Source: a virus. Taken from it: DNA of 64,000 nucleotides. Shown here piece after piece: positions 4,668-26,140 of this stretch. The notes beneath the pieces are model-generated. The model was given only the letters and a program-made list of their open reading frames with translations. It had not been told where the DNA came from and did no database searches. The first letter of the stretch is position 1. The number at the start of each line of letters is the position of its first letter. Where the stretch lies: the IMG/VR virus record IMGVR_UViG_3300037140_000174, positions 29,070-93,069 of that record; one strand, written 5' to 3'. Made by a program: the position numbers and the translations under genes.

Positions 4668-4693
4668 GAATTTCTCCTTTCTAGGAGGCTGAT

Positions 4694-5623
4694 ATTCCGC
4701 GCAACGGTTCAGGGACTTACACTCTTCCGCAGTCGCCCTTTGTTCCAGGGACGACGATATCTTCGGCTGCGGTAAATTCTGATTTTTCAGATGTTGCCAA
4801 CGCCTTGACTGGATCAGTTTCTGTTGATGGTCAAACCACCATCACTGGTCAGTTGAAATTCCCAAATGGGTCGGCTGCTGCCCCATCTCATACGTTTGCA
4901 TCAAATCTTACGACGGGGATGTATTATATTGGAACGAAATATTTGGGTTTCACTACGGGTGGAACCCAAATTGTCGCCTTCAATGGTAATAGTCAAGGTT
5001 CTGGTCAAAGTGGAAATGTAATCGAAATTAATACTGCGACTGGAACTATTTATCCTAACCCAGTTGGTTTTATTGGGGATTTTGCAGGACCTACGGCTCC
5101 CGCTGGTTGGCTTCTTTGCTATGGACAAGTTGTCAACACAAGTGATTATCCAGAGCTTTTTGTAGCTCTAGGAAGTACCAACACTTATGGAGGAAATGGA
5201 ACTACTACATTTGGTATCCCTGATTGTCGTGGCCGTGCTTCTTTTGGTAAAGATAATATGGGAGGTTCGGCTGCCAACCGAATTACTTCGGCTGGTGGTA
5301 ATTTTGATGGCACGGTTCTTGGGGGCACAGGCGGTCAGCAGAATTTTACCCTTACGACAACCCAACTGCCGGCCATTAAACCAGCAATAACGATTACTGA
5401 TCCAGGGCATCTTCATATTACGTCTAATCTTGTCGTCAACGGAGGTGGAAGCGATAATATCCTTACGAGTGGGGGTATTATTAATATTACTGCACCTAAC
5501 ACAAACACAGCTGTGACCGGAATAACGGCTGCTTTTACCAGCAATCTTGGTTCTGGGAATGCTACTCCGGTTCTGTCACCTTCAATTATTTTCAATAAGA
5601 TAATCTTTGCAGGGCGTGTATAA
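4694..5623 (+). CDS. Tail fibre / tail-collar domain protein, start extended to an ATT codon
   Basis: Tail collar motif PVG.I..FAG...PAGWLLC.GQ...YPELF...FGIPD.RGR. GGAGG at 4684-4688, then ATT-CCG-CGC-AAC-GGT (PRNGSGTYTLP). In-frame TAG at 4682. Confidence 0.8.
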   Translation: MPRNGSGTYTLPQSPFVPGTTISSAAVNSDFSDVANALTGSVSVDGQTTITGQLKFPNGSAAAPSHTFASNLTTGMYYIGTKYLGFTTGGTQIVAFNGNSQGSGQSGNVIEINTATGTIYPNPVGFIGDFAGPTAPAGWLLCYGQVVNTSDYPELFVALGSTNTYGGNGTTTFGIPDCRGRASFGKDNMGGSAANRITSAGGNFDGTVLGGTGGQQNFTLTTTQLPAIKPAITITDPGHLHITSNLVVNGGGSDNILTSGGIINITAPNTNTAVTGITAAFTSNLGSGNATPVLSPSIIFNKIIFAGRV

Positions 5624-22202: not shown

Positions 22203-24809
22203 CTATACGTCCCGGTGTGACCAAAATTTCCCTAATGGCTCTAATTCAGCCCAGTTCTTGCCAAGAGAAATTTCGATAGATAATGGGACGTTAATCCATT
22301 TATAATCGAACTTTAGCATCTGTTTCATGATAATTTCTAATGCAGGCTCAAGAAGCTTTTCATCTTCAGGAATGAAAAAGCTTAAATCGTCATGCACGTT
22401 CAAAACTGGGTGCATGTACCAGTTTCCAGATTCTGACGCTATTATGGATAGCCTATTCATGGCGTCACACACCAATTCAGCCTCCGCACCTTGAATCGGC
22501 ATATTCACTGCTTGATTCCTGGTCAGTGGGTAGTTGTGCCGCCTTCCAGTGAGTGTCGTAACATATCCCTCATCATAGTAGCGTCTCATGGTCTCATCTT
22601 GCCAAGAGTGGACGCCGGCAAATATTTTCCAGAATTCATCCATTAGGTCGTCCACATCACCTTGATCTACGTCATACTCAGTGGCTGCCGTCAGATACCT
22701 TTTGACTGATGTGGAAGCAGCACCAAAGAAAGCGGGGAAAACTAACTTATTTTTTATTAGAGATCTAAAACCCTTCATTATTTTTGCGTCTTTAATGTTT
22801 TCTTTGCCCCCTATGAGCCCAGGGGCTTTGTGGGCTGCTTTTAGAGCCCATTCCATATGGATGTCGTAGTCCTCCCAAAGAGCTTTCACCAAGTATTTGT
22901 CGCGTGAGCACATAGCCCCGGTGCAAGCTTCTAGCTGCCCATAGTCCACAGCCACCATCAAGTGCCCTTTAGGTGGAACAATTGACTTCCGTACCCAAGA
23001 ATCATTTCTTTTTGGAAAGTTCTGAAGGTTTGGCGAACTACTACTCAGCCTGCCGGTCTCCGTAAATGTGGTGTTGAATGAAGTGTGGAGCTTACCGTCA
23101 GGATAAATAATATCTCCAACCCCAAGCTCAAGCCCATCAACGTAGGTGGATTTGAGTTTGGATTTGTTCCTAAGTTCGACAATCAGCTTAGCCAAAGGGT
23201 GGTCAATTTTATCCAACACATTTTTGTCAACGGAATAGCGAGTGTTATTTTCTTCAACAATTGTCACTTCCTTACGCTTAAGATAATCTCTGAAAAGCTT
23301 GATTGCATCTTCACCCAGTGGGTTGAATTCTTTATTATCCAGTACATACTTTTTGACCACCTTAAGATCATGGATCTTGGCCATGATCAGATTCACTTCA
23401 CCCTCAAGCTTTTTCTGTGAACTCTTTATCTCGTCTTGATTTACAATCACACCTAGGCTTTGCATGATTGCAACAGTGCATTGCCTAGGGAGTGCTTCTA
23501 TGTAGGCATCATAAACCTGAAGCTCTCGCATTATCTCATTTTGAGTAACCCAGAGCTGAAGCGTAATCTTAGTATCTACCCCATTGTAGATCAGTATTTC
23601 ACCTAGGTCAGATTTTGACATATCCTTCTTATCAAGCTTGAAGAAGCTTTTGTAGGAAGTGCCAAAATACTGCTTACATAGGAAATCTAGTTTTTGATAT
23701 GGAGAAGCGTGATCTTCTTCACTGTTGCCTTGTTTGCCTTTACGCTCATCAATGAAATGAGCCTGCATCATGGTGTCTTCCCAGACATCATGCCTGACTA
23801 CATCTTTAGCGTAGAGCCAGATGAACCACTCTAATTCAAAGGGAGCATTGTGAGCTATCTTTATAGTGTCATCACGAAGTATTCTCTGAAACTCAGCACC
23901 AATTTTCAGCTTCTGCTGATCTGTCCATTTTGACTTAGGGTGATCCCAAGCGAAGGCTACGTGGGTAGCCTGAAAACTAATTGCCATCGACATGATGGCG
24001 GCCCCTTTGCTGTACGGCCTCAGCCCTTTGGTCTCAATATCTACGGCTTTGACCTCCGCTTTCTTTGCCTGCTGAAGCAGACCCATCAGTAACGCGAAGT
24101 GCCCAGGTTCAGAACCGTCAAAGCACTGAATCCCAGCTCGCATCTGATCTTCAGTCGGGATGGCAGTAGCAGCACGAAGTTTTGGGGCCAATTCAAAAGC
24201 CCGCTTCAAATCCATTTTGAAGCAATGACCCAACCTTGATCGTAATGGCTTCTTTTTGTCATAAGCCATTTTAATCAAGTCAGTAGGATCATAGGTGGGC
24301 ATGAAATACCCCACCCACTCACCTATTTTGACTTTGAAGATGCGTCCACGCATCCCTACGAGGTCATTTGACCCCAAAACCTGGGATAAGGCACCGTGGC
24401 CTAGACCGATTATTAGCTTTGGATTTGCTGTTTCAATACTCTTTGTGACTAGTGGACGGCAACACTCAGTTTCCTGCCATGATGGCTTCTTAGTGTAGTC
24501 ACGCACTACGTTGTCAAAGGAGCAGAATTTAAGTGTCTCTTCAGGTATTTCTGCAATGTGCAGATTGCCAAACGGTTCCCCAGATTTATCGTCAGCTTCA
24601 GTAGGCCCGCTCCCTAGGAAGTAGACGAGTGTATTTTTAGCCAAAATAGGGGCCATTTTAGGCGTGGTTACGTCCGCCTTGTTAAGCGGGCAGGCGGCAC
24701 AGCCAATGCGTGACAGCGTCTGGGCGCTGGCCTTACCCCCCGACGTTGGACCCCTACCAGTGGCCTTTGCAATGGGTTTACGGGCCGGTTTGGTGAAGAA
24801 AAATGAAAT
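22203..24809 (-). CDS. polA: Family A DNA polymerase with N-terminal UDG-like domain and 3'-5' exonuclease; start extended to ATT
   Basis: DIET and AHN exonuclease motifs; TGRLSS..PNLQN, DYGQLE, N.PIQG, VHD. 51-codon upstream extension carries CAACPL after a GGAGG RBS. Confidence 0.9.
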   Translation of the reverse strand: MSFFFTKPARKPIAKATGRGPTSGGKASAQTLSRIGCAACPLNKADVTTPKMAPILAKNTLVYFLGSGPTEADDKSGEPFGNLHIAEIPEETLKFCSFDNVVRDYTKKPSWQETECCRPLVTKSIETANPKLIIGLGHGALSQVLGSNDLVGMRGRIFKVKIGEWVGYFMPTYDPTDLIKMAYDKKKPLRSRLGHCFKMDLKRAFELAPKLRAATAIPTEDQMRAGIQCFDGSEPGHFALLMGLLQQAKKAEVKAVDIETKGLRPYSKGAAIMSMAISFQATHVAFAWDHPKSKWTDQQKLKIGAEFQRILRDDTIKIAHNAPFELEWFIWLYAKDVVRHDVWEDTMMQAHFIDERKGKQGNSEEDHASPYQKLDFLCKQYFGTSYKSFFKLDKKDMSKSDLGEILIYNGVDTKITLQLWVTQNEIMRELQVYDAYIEALPRQCTVAIMQSLGVIVNQDEIKSSQKKLEGEVNLIMAKIHDLKVVKKYVLDNKEFNPLGEDAIKLFRDYLKRKEVTIVEENNTRYSVDKNVLDKIDHPLAKLIVELRNKSKLKSTYVDGLELGVGDIIYPDGKLHTSFNTTFTETGRLSSSSPNLQNFPKRNDSWVRKSIVPPKGHLMVAVDYGQLEACTGAMCSRDKYLVKALWEDYDIHMEWALKAAHKAPGLIGGKENIKDAKIMKGFRSLIKNKLVFPAFFGAASTSVKRYLTAATEYDVDQGDVDDLMDEFWKIFAGVHSWQDETMRRYYDEGYVTTLTGRRHNYPLTRNQAVNMPIQGAEAELVCDAMNRLSIIASESGNWYMHPVLNVHDDLSFFIPEDEKLLEPALEIIMKQMLKFDYKWINVPLSIEISLGKNWAELEPLGKFWSHRDV

Positions 24810-24812
24810 GTC

Positions 24813-25118
24813 TTAGCCTCCAATTCTGGCTTTGACTTTTTCTACATCATCCCCAGTTTTGAGTGGCTTGCCGTCAATCAGCATTTGAGATACTTTATTT
24901 ATCGCGTAGTAGACAGACGAGTGGTCACGCTTCCCAAACCTCATGCTGATATCCCGCAATGATCGGAAGGTTAGCTTACACATGCAGTACATGGCGATGT
25001 GCCGCCAATAAGTGACGCTGAGTGTCTGTACGTCTGGAGCCACCAACACATCTATCGGAATTTCAGCGATTTCCGATACTGCATTTAACACGTCATCAAT
25101 TGTGACGGTTTTGATCAT
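24813..25118 (-). CDS. Stand-alone DnaA C-terminal (domain IV) HTH protein
   Basis: RHIAMY...LT..SL.DI...FG.RDHSSV.YA..KV DnaA signature. Confidence 0.85.
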   Translation of the reverse strand: MIKTVTIDDVLNAVSEIAEIPIDVLVAPDVQTLSVTYWRHIAMYCMCKLTFRSLRDISMRFGKRDHSSVYYAINKVSQMLIDGKPLKTGDDVEKVKARIGG

Positions 25119-26140
25119 CCCATATTGCTTATCAGTTGAAAGAAGTTGCTCCCCGATGTGCATACACAACACTCCTCCGTAATTGCTATCTTTTCAGAAA
25201 TACTCAGTGAGCGTTGCAGGAGCTGAGCACTCACACCAGCTTCCACATCAGGGTGCTTGAAAGGTAACACGTCCCTGACAATGCCCATCGAGGCATCAGT
25301 GACTACTGTTACCTTTCCACCCTTCACAGTCAGGATGGTTTTTGCAGATTCAGGGTCAGCTACAATGCGTGCTCGTGAAAGCGCATTGTCTAATAGCTTC
25401 GGCACGTCTACCATTTGTGGAGTTGTACTTATCTTTTTCTTTATCTGACCGGCAAAATCAAGAGGACGATCATTTTGAATTATCCTACCATAAACGGTTA
25501 CCTCACCAATTGAGGCAATTGCCCAATCCTTGCTCAGTGAAAGTGTGGCATCCTCAACTTCTGGGATTTTAAGCACAGTTTCACAAAAAGAAGTTGGAAT
25601 CATGTAATCAGGGAGTTTTGGGTTTCCCTTTATTGTAGTGATATATCGCGTCAATGTATCCCCATCACAGGAATACATAGTTATGGCTTTATCTTTCTGA
25701 GTAATTGAAACCCCTTTCAGGGCAGGCATAGCCTCACTCTTAGCCACAGTCATTAAGCAACGATCAAGGCCATTTAGGAAGTCACTGTCAATTTTGACCG
25801 TAATATCCGGTGCTTCTTCAGGCTCAGTAAATAGAAATTCATCGTCAGGATGAAACGGAAGCTTGAAAGTACTCTTACCAGCCTTGATGACTAGATCATG
25901 CCCTTCAAAATCAATCTCAACTTCCTCAGAATAGCTATTCTTGAGTAGCCCAAGCAGTGTCTTGCCATCAACCCCGAATGATTGCTCAGTTTCACACTTG
26001 GTTACAATCCCAAGCACGTCATTGTAGGCTGCTACTTCACTGCCATTGAATGTGAAGCATTTGAAGATTGGGACTAGGTCACCATCAGCTAATGCACGGC
26101 CAACTAGCTCCAAAGTATCAACCAGTTCTTTTCTATTCAT
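25115..26140 (-). CDS. dnaN: Sliding clamp, Pol III beta-like
   Basis: 341 aa, MNRKEL..L start, three-domain pattern (L.GV ... DG..L); near DnaX. Confidence 0.75.
   Translation of the reverse strand: MNRKELVDTLELVGRALADGDLVPIFKCFTFNGSEVAAYNDVLGIVTKCETEQSFGVDGKTLLGLLKNSYSEEVEIDFEGHDLVIKAGKSTFKLPFHPDDEFLFTEPEEAPDITVKIDSDFLNGLDRCLMTVAKSEAMPALKGVSITQKDKAITMYSCDGDTLTRYITTIKGNPKLPDYMIPTSFCETVLKIPEVEDATLSLSKDWAIASIGEVTVYGRIIQNDRPLDFAGQIKKKISTTPQMVDVPKLLDNALSRARIVADPESAKTILTVKGGKVTVVTDASMGIVRDVLPFKHPDVEAGVSAQLLQRSLSISEKIAITEECCVCTSGSNFFQLISNMG

What the first reader, a model, noticed from the sequence alone, without database searches (positions are those of the whole stretch)
24657..24822. DNA polymerase appears to start at AUU
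Seen: GGAGG-ctaagac-ATT TCA TTT TTC TTC. The 51 codons before the called ATG are open, bounded by an in-frame TAA at 24813, contain no ATG/GTG/TTG, and encode CAACPL, the N-terminal Cys motif of family-4 UDG domains. Known: AUU starts (infC, pcnB) give low, IF3-sensitive expression. Inference: deliberate translational throttling of the polymerase. A second AUU case at 4694 argues against a sequencing error.
Basis: partly seen in the sequence, partly recalled or inferred. Interest (0 to 1): 0.7.

Follow-up and report, generated by a model that had tools for sequence, protein, structure and literature searches.

The report
Phage DNA polymerase starting at AUU
The DNA polymerase gene of this uncultured 93-kb phage almost certainly begins at the rare start codon ATT, 51 codons upstream of where gene finders place it; related phages made the same switch several times, each time with an unusually strong ribosome-binding site.

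Summary
On the minus strand, GGAGG (24821-24817), a 7-nt spacer and ATT (24809-24807) lie 3 nt after the TAA of the upstream gene. They open 51 in-frame codons with no ATG, GTG or TTG before the called ATG (24656).

The ATT aligns codon-for-codon with the ATG, GTG or TTG of homologues, whose N-terminus is M-[S/G]-F-F-F. Cys37 and Cys40 are invariant in 44 relatives and match the KCTACPL iron-sulfur motif of Thermotoga family-4 UDG. The called Met52 is a conserved internal residue (TPKMxPT).

Among 53 distinct family members, 7 start at ATT and 1 at ATC, in at least four separate lineages and at least 10 independent assemblies. These eight hold 8 of the 9 strongest Shine-Dalgarno sites (-9.3 to -11.9 kcal/mol; ATG median -3.1). 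Between ATT lineages the N-terminal codons show the same pN/pS (0.1-0.2) as the rest of the gene.

The tail-fibre ATT at 4694 is also real and also recurs in relatives.

"Deliberate throttling" is not shown. The pattern looks like a compensated design: weak codon plus strong SD in place of strong codon plus no SD. This scan has noted AUU-started phage genes on other DNA before. I class it as a new member of a known kind (infC/pcnB-type AUU starts).

The parts
24817..24821 (-). Shine-Dalgarno GGAGG, 7 nt upstream of the ATT; formed by the Gly-Gly codons at the end of the upstream gene
   Evidence: sequence; duplex energy with ACCUCCUUA is -9.3 kcal/mol, rank 9 of 53 family members.
24813..24815 (-). 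TAA stop of the upstream DnaA_C-like gene. It is in frame with the polymerase and 3 nt before the ATT, giving a UAA-NNN-AUU layout.
   Evidence: The same layout is described for the thrS-infC junction of E. coli in PMC3592434.
24807..24809 (-). ATT (AUU) initiation codon of the polymerase
   Evidence: It aligns with the ATG, GTG or TTG of homologues. ATT or ATC is at the same column in 7 further distinct relatives.
24657..24806 (-). Codons 2-51, missed by gene callers. They comprise the conserved SFFF peptide, a basic low-confidence linker, and the first helix of the UDG-like fold.
   Evidence: pN/pS of this segment between ATT-bearing relatives is 0.11-0.23, the same as the rest of the gene.
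24690..24701 (-). Cys37-x-x-Cys40, the first two cluster-ligand cysteines of the family-4 UDG type
   Evidence: Invariant in 44 sequences. Aligns with KCTACPL of T. maritima UDG 1L9G/1VK2. Lies in helix 29-39 of the model, where the 10-residue blocks from residue 31 on average pLDDT 94.
24654..24656 (-). ATG of Met52, the start chosen by gene callers. It is actually a nearly invariant internal Met of the TPKMxPT motif.
   Evidence: SD energy there is only -4.8 kcal/mol.
22203..24809 (-). Full polymerase CDS, 868 codons plus stop: UDG-like domain (about residues 30-216), 3'-5' exonuclease (244-420), family A polymerase (493-855)
   Evidence: Pfam PF03167, PF01612 and PF00476. The fold of residues 1-240 matches family-4 UDG/UdgX at Z 20-21.
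24813..25118 (-). Upstream gene, 101 codons, DnaA C-terminal HTH-like. Its ATG overlaps the clamp gene's TGA (ATGA).
   Evidence: Pfam PF08299 E 3e-15; sequence.
25115..26140 (-). Beta-clamp-like gene, first member of the tightly coupled clamp / DnaA_C-like / polymerase chain
   Evidence: Pfam PF00712. Clamp genes precede the polymerase in many relatives.
4683..4696 (+). Second AUU start: AGGAGG, spacer ctgat, ATT of the tail-fibre gene (CDS 4694-5623)
   Evidence: The ATT aligns with ATT (L139-141, L143, L144) or ATG (L142, L145, L146) of relatives, all followed by PRNGSG. SD energy is -10.2 kcal/mol.

Best explanation
The polymerase (UDG-like, exonuclease and PolA domains fused) is translated from AUU at 24809-24807, presumably decoded by initiator tRNA as fMet. 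This gives an 868-residue protein that begins M-S-F-F-F.

Initiation is made possible by a strong GGAGG Shine-Dalgarno site at optimal spacing. It is probably helped by ribosomes terminating at the upstream gene's UAA only 3 nt away, which allows termination-reinitiation. The gene is the last link of a coupled chain: clamp, DnaA_C-like gene, polymerase.

Across the family there are two interchangeable start designs. One is a canonical codon with little or no SD, usually overlapping or abutting the upstream stop. The other is AUU or AUC with a very strong SD. The window uses the second design. It most likely keeps polymerase output modest and makes it more dependent on IF3 level and host physiology than an AUG start would be.

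Shown: the position of the start, its recurrence, the SD association, and that the extension is coding.
Inferred: fMet decoding, reinitiation, the expression level, and IF3 sensitivity.
For: - Codon-for-codon alignment of the ATT with homologue start codons. The family N-terminus x[SG]FF[FY] is conserved with synonymous variation.
- Start codons in 53 distinct members: ATG 33, GTG 8, TTG 3, ATT 7, ATC 1, GTT 1.
- The tree needs at least 5 changes for ATT, even when only well-supported branches are counted. The window, L035, L014 and a 7-member clade are separate lineages.
- Near-identical proteins differ only in start design: L009 ATT versus L010 GTG, and L035 ATT versus L033 GTG.
- All 8 ATT/ATC sites have SD energies of -9.3 to -11.9 kcal/mol, which is 8 of the top 9. 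ATG median is -3.1. Mann-Whitney p = 5e-6, or 2e-4 using 5 independent contexts.
- Of 6 phylogenetically independent pairs, 5 go the same way, 0 go the other way and 1 does not differ.
- Neighbouring ORF starts in the same loci have a median SD energy of about -3 kcal/mol.
- The extension is under the same purifying selection as the rest of the gene.
- It holds the invariant Cys37 and Cys40, which align to the Thermotoga UDG motif, and the first helix of a fold matching family-4 UDG at Z 21 from about residue 30.
- Met52 is a conserved internal residue with a weak SD.
- Relatives at about 90-94% identity from other assemblies (P0002, P0046, P0047) were also called from Met52, as expected if they too lack a canonical start upstream.
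- The tail-fibre gene shows the same pattern.
- Literature: the infC junction is UAA-GGU-AUU, with reinitiation and de novo initiation contributing about equally (PMC3592434). In an optimised initiation region AUU gives 0.5-0.7 of AUG and is the start codon most depressed by added IF3 (PMC5499595).
Against: - There is no protein, Ribo-seq or read-level evidence.
- The host is unknown, so its anti-SD sequence and IF3 behaviour are assumed to be canonical.
Conservation of ATT within the window's own clade is therefore indirect.
- The independent-pairs test cannot reach p < 0.05 with only 5 informative pairs (p = 0.06).
- A minor isoform from Met52 cannot be excluded.
- Nothing measures expression, so low or modest output is an inference from E. 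coli data, where estimates for AUU range from 1-2% of AUG (bioRxiv 10.1101/063800) to 12-75% depending on context.
Confidence: 0.87

Rival explanations
1. The AUU start is genuine, but it is a dedicated regulatory sensor. With a strong SD holding the 30S subunit, initiation is gated by IF3 proofreading. Polymerase and tail-fibre synthesis then rise or fall with the host IF3-to-ribosome ratio, temperature or ppGpp, tying replication to host state or to the stage of infection.
For: - In E. coli extracts, AUU is the start codon most depressed by added IF3. It also competes poorly at low temperature and under nutrient limitation or ppGpp (PMC5499595).
- infC uses exactly this layout for autoregulation.
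- ATT persists over substantial divergence in a 7-member clade.
- Two genes in one phage use it.
Against: - ATT is readily exchanged for GTG or ATG between near-identical polymerases (L009/L010, L033/L035, L068/L106).
- It sits in different genes in different relatives.
- Both points fit a roughly neutral, compensated alternative better than an indispensable sensor.
- No data exist on the host's IF3.
Confidence: 0.2
2. Translation really starts at the called ATG (Met52). On this view the upstream 51 codons are an untranslated relic of a start codon lost by mutation, and the UDG-like domain is decaying.
For: - The window's UDG motif A is degenerate (GSGPT instead of GEAPG).
- Gene callers chose Met52 in four assemblies.
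- The ATG is the first canonical codon.
Against: - Met52 is a nearly invariant internal residue in proteins that start 50 residues earlier.
- Its SD is weak at -4.8 kcal/mol, against -9.3 for the ATT.
- The extension is open, conserved and under purifying selection in ATT lineages.
- It carries two invariant Cys and the first helix of the fold.
- A dead start would not be accompanied by one of the strongest SD sites in the family, repeatedly.
Confidence: 0.06
3. The ATT is a sequencing or assembly error for ATG.
For: ATT differs from ATG by a single base, and the window comes from a metagenome assembly.
Against: - The same ATT (or ATC) with its own strong SD is present in at least 10 independently assembled contigs from different samples and four lineages.
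- A second gene in the same genome shows it, and so do that gene's relatives.
- Close relatives from other assemblies were also called from Met52.
Confidence: 0.02
4. The N-terminal extension is reached by recoding rather than by initiation. This would mean either readthrough of the in-frame TAA of the upstream gene, giving a DnaA_C-polymerase fusion, or a frameshift from the overlapping TTG-started frame (24823).
For: - The upstream TAA is in frame with the polymerase.
- A 51-codon TTG ORF overlaps the extension in another frame.
Against: - In the other ATT loci the upstream stop is out of frame, at -5 or -14.
- The upstream genes differ between loci (clamp, DnaA_C-like, others).
- The genome encodes no tRNA, so no suppressor.
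- I saw no canonical slippery heptamer in the sequence, and there is no significant RNA structure (z = -1.05).
- The conserved element is the ATT itself, at the column of the start codon.
Confidence: 0.02

Closest known systems
E. coli infC (IF3) AUU start at the thrS-infC junction
   Same: An AUU start codon preceded by an SD lies 3 nt after the UAA of the upstream cistron: UAA-GGU-AUU in infC, UAA-GAC-AUU here. Translation there is the sum of reinitiation and de novo initiation, and is lower than with AUG (PMC3592434).
   Different: infC is autoregulated by its own product. Here the gene is a phage polymerase, no feedback loop is evident, and IF3 sensitivity is untested. This family also alternates freely between the AUU-plus-SD design and the AUG-without-SD design.
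E. coli pcnB (poly(A) polymerase) AUU start
   Same: A nucleic-acid polymerase whose expression is limited by an inefficient AUU start (Binns and Masters 2002, cited in PMC3592434 and bioRxiv 10.1101/063800).
   Different: pcnB is a chromosomal bacterial gene with no homology to this one. No family-wide association between AUU and a strong SD is known to me for pcnB.
Family-4 (Fe-S) uracil-DNA glycosylases and UdgX; UDG-like N-domains of phage family A polymerases (e.g. PDB 9QHS, phiLo polymerase)
   Same: The N-terminal domain folds like 1UI0, 1VK2 and 6IOD (Z 20-21, rmsd about 2.1-2.8 over 164-177 residues). It keeps the CxxC motif aligned to KCTACPL.
   Different: Motif A is GSGPT rather than GEAPG in the window, so glycosylase activity is doubtful. 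The domain is fused to exonuclease and polymerase domains.
Other AUU-started phage genes noted earlier in this scan (T4-like soil phage DNA polymerase, phiEco32-like amidotransferase, late sigma factor)
   Same: In each, a rare ATT start sits behind a strong ribosome-binding site, is missed by gene finders, and recurs in relatives (AI notes I did not re-test).
   Different: Those are different gene families and phage groups. Here the ATT-versus-SD compensation is quantified on a tree, and two genes in one genome are affected.

Membership tests
AUU-initiated genes of the infC/pcnB type | AUU occupies the position where the protein's conserved N-terminus begins, with no canonical start available in frame upstream | tested here: met
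   Aligned to the start codons of 44 homologues. An in-frame TAA lies two codons upstream.
AUU-initiated genes of the infC/pcnB type | Shine-Dalgarno sequence at functional spacing from the AUU | tested here: met
   GGAGG with a 7-nt spacer, -9.3 kcal/mol.
AUU-initiated genes of the infC/pcnB type | The protein N-terminus (fMet/Met) maps to the AUU | not testable with these tools
   Needs N-terminal proteomics or Edman sequencing. Indirect support comes from purifying selection on codons 2-45 in ATT lineages.
AUU-initiated genes of the infC/pcnB type | Expression is reduced relative to AUG and repressed by IF3 | not testable with these tools
   Known only from E. coli literature.
Translationally coupled cistrons (termination-reinitiation) | Stop of the upstream gene overlaps the start or lies within a few nt of it | tested here: met
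   The TAA ends 3 nt before the ATT. The clamp and DnaA_C-like genes overlap by ATGA. Most family members have the stop between -14 and +1.
Translationally coupled cistrons (termination-reinitiation) | Downstream translation depends on upstream translation | not testable with these tools
   Needs a premature-stop construct in the upstream gene.
Family-4 uracil-DNA glycosylase domain | N-terminal CxxC cluster-ligand motif | tested here: met
   C37 and C40 are invariant and align with KCTACPL of 1L9G/1VK2.
Family-4 uracil-DNA glycosylase domain | UDG alpha/beta fold | tested here: met
   Model pLDDT 89. Z 21.2 to 1UI0 and 20.4 to 1VK2, model residues about 30-216.
Family-4 uracil-DNA glycosylase domain | Catalytic motif A GE[AG]PG (as I recall it for this family) | tested here: not met
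   The window has GSGPT, while most relatives have AEAPG or GEAPG. I therefore call the domain UDG-like, not an active UDG.
Family A DNA polymerase with 3'-5' exonuclease | Pfam DNA_pol_A and DNA_pol_A_exo1 above gathering score | tested here: met
   PF00476 at 196.7 bits and PF01612 at 37.6 bits.

The most novel reading that the evidence does not exclude
The pairing of AUU with a very strong Shine-Dalgarno site is a selected IF3- and physiology-sensing switch. A group of soil phages would use it, in the polymerase, the tail fibre or both, to couple replication and virion completion to the host's translational state. On this reading the repeated switches between this design and an AUG start without SD reflect adaptation to different hosts or lifestyles.
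Probability: 0.2. Interest if true: 0.7.

Novelty: new member of a known kind. Interest (0 to 1): 0.45.

Why it matters
Standard gene finders do not consider ATT as a start codon. As a result this polymerase, and at least five related database proteins (P0002, P0003, P0008, P0046, P0047), are recorded 20 to 51 residues short. In the window's own lineage the missing part includes two invariant cysteines and the first helix of the N-terminal domain.

The family also offers a natural experiment in how initiation signals trade off against each other. The same protein is started either by ATG, GTG or TTG with almost no SD, or by ATT or ATC with a near-perfect SD, and the switch happened repeatedly between close relatives. 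That makes it a clean system for measuring how start codon, SD strength and stop-start coupling compensate for one another, and for asking whether AUU starts give phages an IF3-dependent control point.

Tried and rejected
- A megablast of the region against cultured phages found nothing.
- The metagenome and genome-contig scans and a 20-mer pattern scan of IMG/VR returned no member of the window's own clade. The four new pattern hits were unrelated T-rich sequence.
- I looked for a phage tRNA that could explain AUU decoding or stop suppression. There is none in the 93-kb genome.
- I looked for an RNA structure around the start. The fold is not better than shuffles (z = -1.05).
- I considered a frameshift from the overlapping TTG frame and readthrough of the TAA, and rejected both (see rivals).
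- Scans for further ATT starts found none beyond the polymerase and fibre. One scan covered the whole genome. The other covered 724 long ORFs of all fetched loci. The simple SD-then-ATT scan is dominated by sites inside genes, so general ATT usage in this phage group remains unmeasured.
- The phylogenetically independent-pairs test of ATT/ATC against strong SD went 5 to 0 with 1 pair not differing, but it cannot reach significance with so few pairs.
Full report
**What is in the sequence**

The gene lies on the minus strand. Reading 5' to 3': GGAGG at 24821-24817, the spacer ctaagac, then ATT at 24809-24807 followed by TCA TTT TTC TTC. The TAA at 24815-24813 is in frame, and it is the stop of the upstream gene. 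The frame stays open for 868 codons down to the stop at 22203-22205. The first in-frame ATG, GTG or TTG is the ATG at 24656, which is codon 52. Codons 37-42 spell CAACPL.

**What the protein is**

- Pfam finds a UDG-superfamily domain (residues 58-186), a 3'-5' exonuclease (244-420) and a family A polymerase (493-855).
- The gene directly upstream (25118-24813) is a 101-codon DnaA C-terminal-like HTH protein. Its ATG overlaps the TGA of a beta-clamp-like gene as ATGA.
- The three genes therefore form a tightly packed chain: clamp, DnaA_C-like gene, polymerase.

**Does translation start at the ATT? Homologue N-termini**

- Cultured relatives start about 50 residues before the window's Met52. 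Vibrio phage SSP002 begins MGFFHTK from an ATG. Edwardsiella phage ZHS begins with SFFYNETK after a GTG.
- The window's ISFFFTK aligns with these codon for codon.
- In a search of 5.8 billion proteins, most of the 45 relatives begin M or V, then S or G, then FFF.
- I fetched about 130 related loci from IMG/VR, JGI/ENA metagenomes and GTDB genomes. I read the codon at the aligned start in 53 distinct proteins. The counts were ATG 33, GTG 8, TTG 3, ATT 7, ATC 1 and GTT 1; the GTT member has a GTG three codons upstream.
- In a 44-sequence alignment of the N-terminal domain, Cys37 and Cys40 are invariant. Phe3, Phe4 and Met52 are nearly invariant.
- The "called" ATG therefore encodes a conserved internal methionine of the TPKMxPT motif. 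It is not a start.

**Is the extension translated and needed?**

- Between ATT-bearing relatives, codons 2-45 have pN/pS of 0.21 (L003/L067), 0.23 (L009/L067) and 0.11 (L067/L068). The rest of the gene gives 0.19, 0.21 and 0.16 for the same pairs. The segment is coding in lineages that have the ATT.
- phmmer against the PDB aligns G36-C-A-A-C-P-L with KCTACPL of Thermotoga maritima family-4 UDG, 1L9G/1VK2.
- An AlphaFold model of residues 1-240 has mean pLDDT 89.3. Residues 1-28 are not structured and have pLDDT about 60-70. Helix 29-39, which carries the CxxC, lies where confidence rises to about 94 (block averages).
- The model matches family-4 UDG and UdgX structures at Z 20-21, from about model residue 30 onward.
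- Starting at Met52 would remove about 22 residues of the fold and two of the cluster-ligand cysteines.
- In the window, L035 and L014 the first canonical codon lies after the CxxC. In the other ATT loci it lies before the CxxC but has no SD.

**Recurrence and independence**

- On a maximum-likelihood tree of the 53 proteins, with the first residue masked, the ATT rows need at least 5 changes, even when only well-supported branches are counted.
- The separate lineages are:
  - the window, alone on a deep branch;
  - L035, whose sister L033 starts at GTG;
  - a 7-member clade in which five members have ATT, L010 has GTG and L106 has ATG;
  - L014, which has ATC.
- L009 (ATT) and L010 (GTG) encode almost identical polymerases.
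- The sequences just upstream of the ATT differ between lineages: ggaggctaagac, caggaggtagcc, tagggggttagtc and gagggagggggcc. A shared transferred module is therefore unlikely.
- ATT or ATC is seen in at least 10 contigs from different samples, which excludes a sequencing error.
- Three further database proteins at about 90-94% identity to the window, from other assemblies, were also called from MAPILAK. That is expected if they too lack a canonical start upstream.

**The compensation pattern**

- I computed the duplex energy between positions -22 to -3 and the 16S 3' end sequence ACCUCCUUA for each of the 53 starts.
- The eight ATT/ATC sites score -9.3 to -11.9 kcal/mol and occupy 8 of the top 9 ranks. 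ATG starts have a median of -3.1 and GTG/TTG starts a median of -5.6.
- The Mann-Whitney test gives p = 5e-6. Using only five independent upstream contexts it gives 2e-4.
- Crude ORF starts elsewhere in the same loci have a median of about -3, and few reach -8. The strong SD is therefore specific to the ATT site.
- Of six phylogenetically independent pairs, five go in this direction, none go the other way and one does not differ. That gives p = 0.06, the best attainable with five informative pairs.
- Canonical-start members typically abut or overlap the upstream stop (TAATG, GTGA, TAAATG) and have no SD.
- The L033/L035 pair shows the switch directly. L033 has a GTGA overlap. L035 has the TGA, then an inserted G-rich SD, then the ATT.

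**The second gene**

- The tail-fibre gene has AGGAGG, the spacer ctgat and ATT at 4694. An in-frame TAG lies four codons upstream (4682), and the first canonical codon (TTG) is 37 codons downstream.
- Relatives encode the same PRNGSGxY[ST]LP N-terminus. It follows ATT with a GAGGGAG SD in L139-141, L143 and L144, and ATG in L142, L145 and L146.
- SD energies are -10.2 and -8.5 for the ATT forms and about -6 for the ATG forms.
- L143 lies on the same contig as L084, whose polymerase starts at ATG. L142 and L146 lie on contigs whose polymerase starts at ATT.
- The ATT design is therefore not tied to the polymerase. It moves between genes within this phage group.

**Mechanism**

*Shown.* The start maps to the ATT. 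It has a strong, well-spaced SD. It lies 3 nt after the upstream stop.

*Inferred from E. coli work.*
- AUU is decoded by initiator tRNA.
- The infC junction UAA-GGU-AUU is translated by reinitiation plus de novo initiation in about equal parts, at about a quarter of the AUG level (PMC3592434).
- AUU gives 1-2% of AUG in one reporter series (bioRxiv 10.1101/063800). It gives 0.5-0.7 of AUG in an optimised initiation region, where it is the codon most depressed by extra IF3, low temperature and nutrient limitation (PMC5499595).

*My reading.* Polymerase initiation is kept weak to moderate throughout this family, and AUU plus a strong SD is one of two equivalent ways to achieve that. Whether it also adds IF3-dependent control is open.

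**Rivals**

- An internal start at Met52 fails for the reasons set out above.
- A sequencing error fails for the reasons set out above.
- Stop-codon readthrough fails because the upstream stop is out of frame in the other ATT loci and the genome has no tRNA gene.
- A frameshift fails because I saw no slippery site in the sequence and there is no significant RNA structure.

**Comparison and novelty**

The closest known case is infC, which has the same stop, 3-nt gap, AUU layout. The next closest is pcnB. I found no paper describing AUU-started phage polymerases in four full-text searches aimed at that question; the library lacks most papers from subscription journals. Earlier notes of this scan report AUU-started phage genes on other DNA, including another phage DNA polymerase; I did not re-test those.

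I class this as a new member of a known kind. It comes with a useful family-wide demonstration of compensation between start codon and SD, and with a practical annotation consequence.

Noticed in passing
window 24795-24809 (-), and the same column in L003-L138: The extreme N-terminus M-[S/G]-F-F-[F/Y] is nearly invariant. It is followed by a basic linker of about 25 residues that is not structured in the model (pLDDT 60-70). The polymerase gene usually sits next to a beta-clamp gene. This looks like a candidate clamp-binding peptide.
   Followed up: no
window about 24590-24610 (-), residues 67-73: Motif A of the UDG-like domain reads GSGPTEADD in the window. Most relatives read [AG]EAPGxxED, though several others are also degenerate (L015, L040, L056, L089). 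The domain may bind rather than excise uracil.
   Followed up: partly
L011, L018, L035, L100, L104; proteins P0016, P0030, P0033: Several family members are 1130-1340 residues long because of insertions. Pfam marks intein or homing-endonuclease domains (PF14890, PF03161) in P0016 and P0030. The polymerase appears to be a frequent intein host.
   Followed up: no
L009 versus L010 (IMG/VR contigs 3300047322_000121 and 3300047471_000676): The polymerases are almost identical (branch lengths 0.004 and 0.001). However, the upstream gene, the start codon (ATT versus GTG) and the synonymous codons of the first residues all differ. This points to a recombination breakpoint at the gene start.
   Followed up: partly
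L033 versus L035: The junction has been remodelled. L033 has a GTGA start/stop overlap with no SD. Its sister L035 has the TGA, then an inserted G-rich SD (gggagggggcc), then the ATT. This is a direct snapshot of the switch between the two start designs.
   Followed up: partly
window 25115-25118 (-): The clamp-like gene and the DnaA_C-like gene overlap by ATGA. Clamp, DnaA_C-like gene and polymerase therefore form one translationally coupled chain. In most relatives the DnaA_C-like gene is absent and the clamp abuts the polymerase.
   Followed up: partly
proteins P0001, P0002, P0003, P0008, P0046, P0047: Database entries for ATT-started members are truncated to the first internal Met. P0003 corresponds to L009 and P0008 to L067. 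Other short calls (P0010, P0015, P0033, P0034, P0038, P0040) may hide further non-canonical starts.
   Followed up: partly
L056 (contig DASTCT010000326.1, 92,176 bp, binned as Candidatus Angelobacter sp., Acidobacteriota): This contig, of nearly the same length as the window's 93-kb genome, carries a family member that starts at ATG. It is probably a phage genome binned into a MAG, and so only a weak hint about the host.
   Followed up: no
PDB 9QHS chain A: This is a solved phage family A polymerase (phiLo, 1122 residues). Its N-terminal residues 34-205 match the window's UDG-like domain at Z 14.2. It could serve as a structural reference for this fusion architecture.
   Followed up: no
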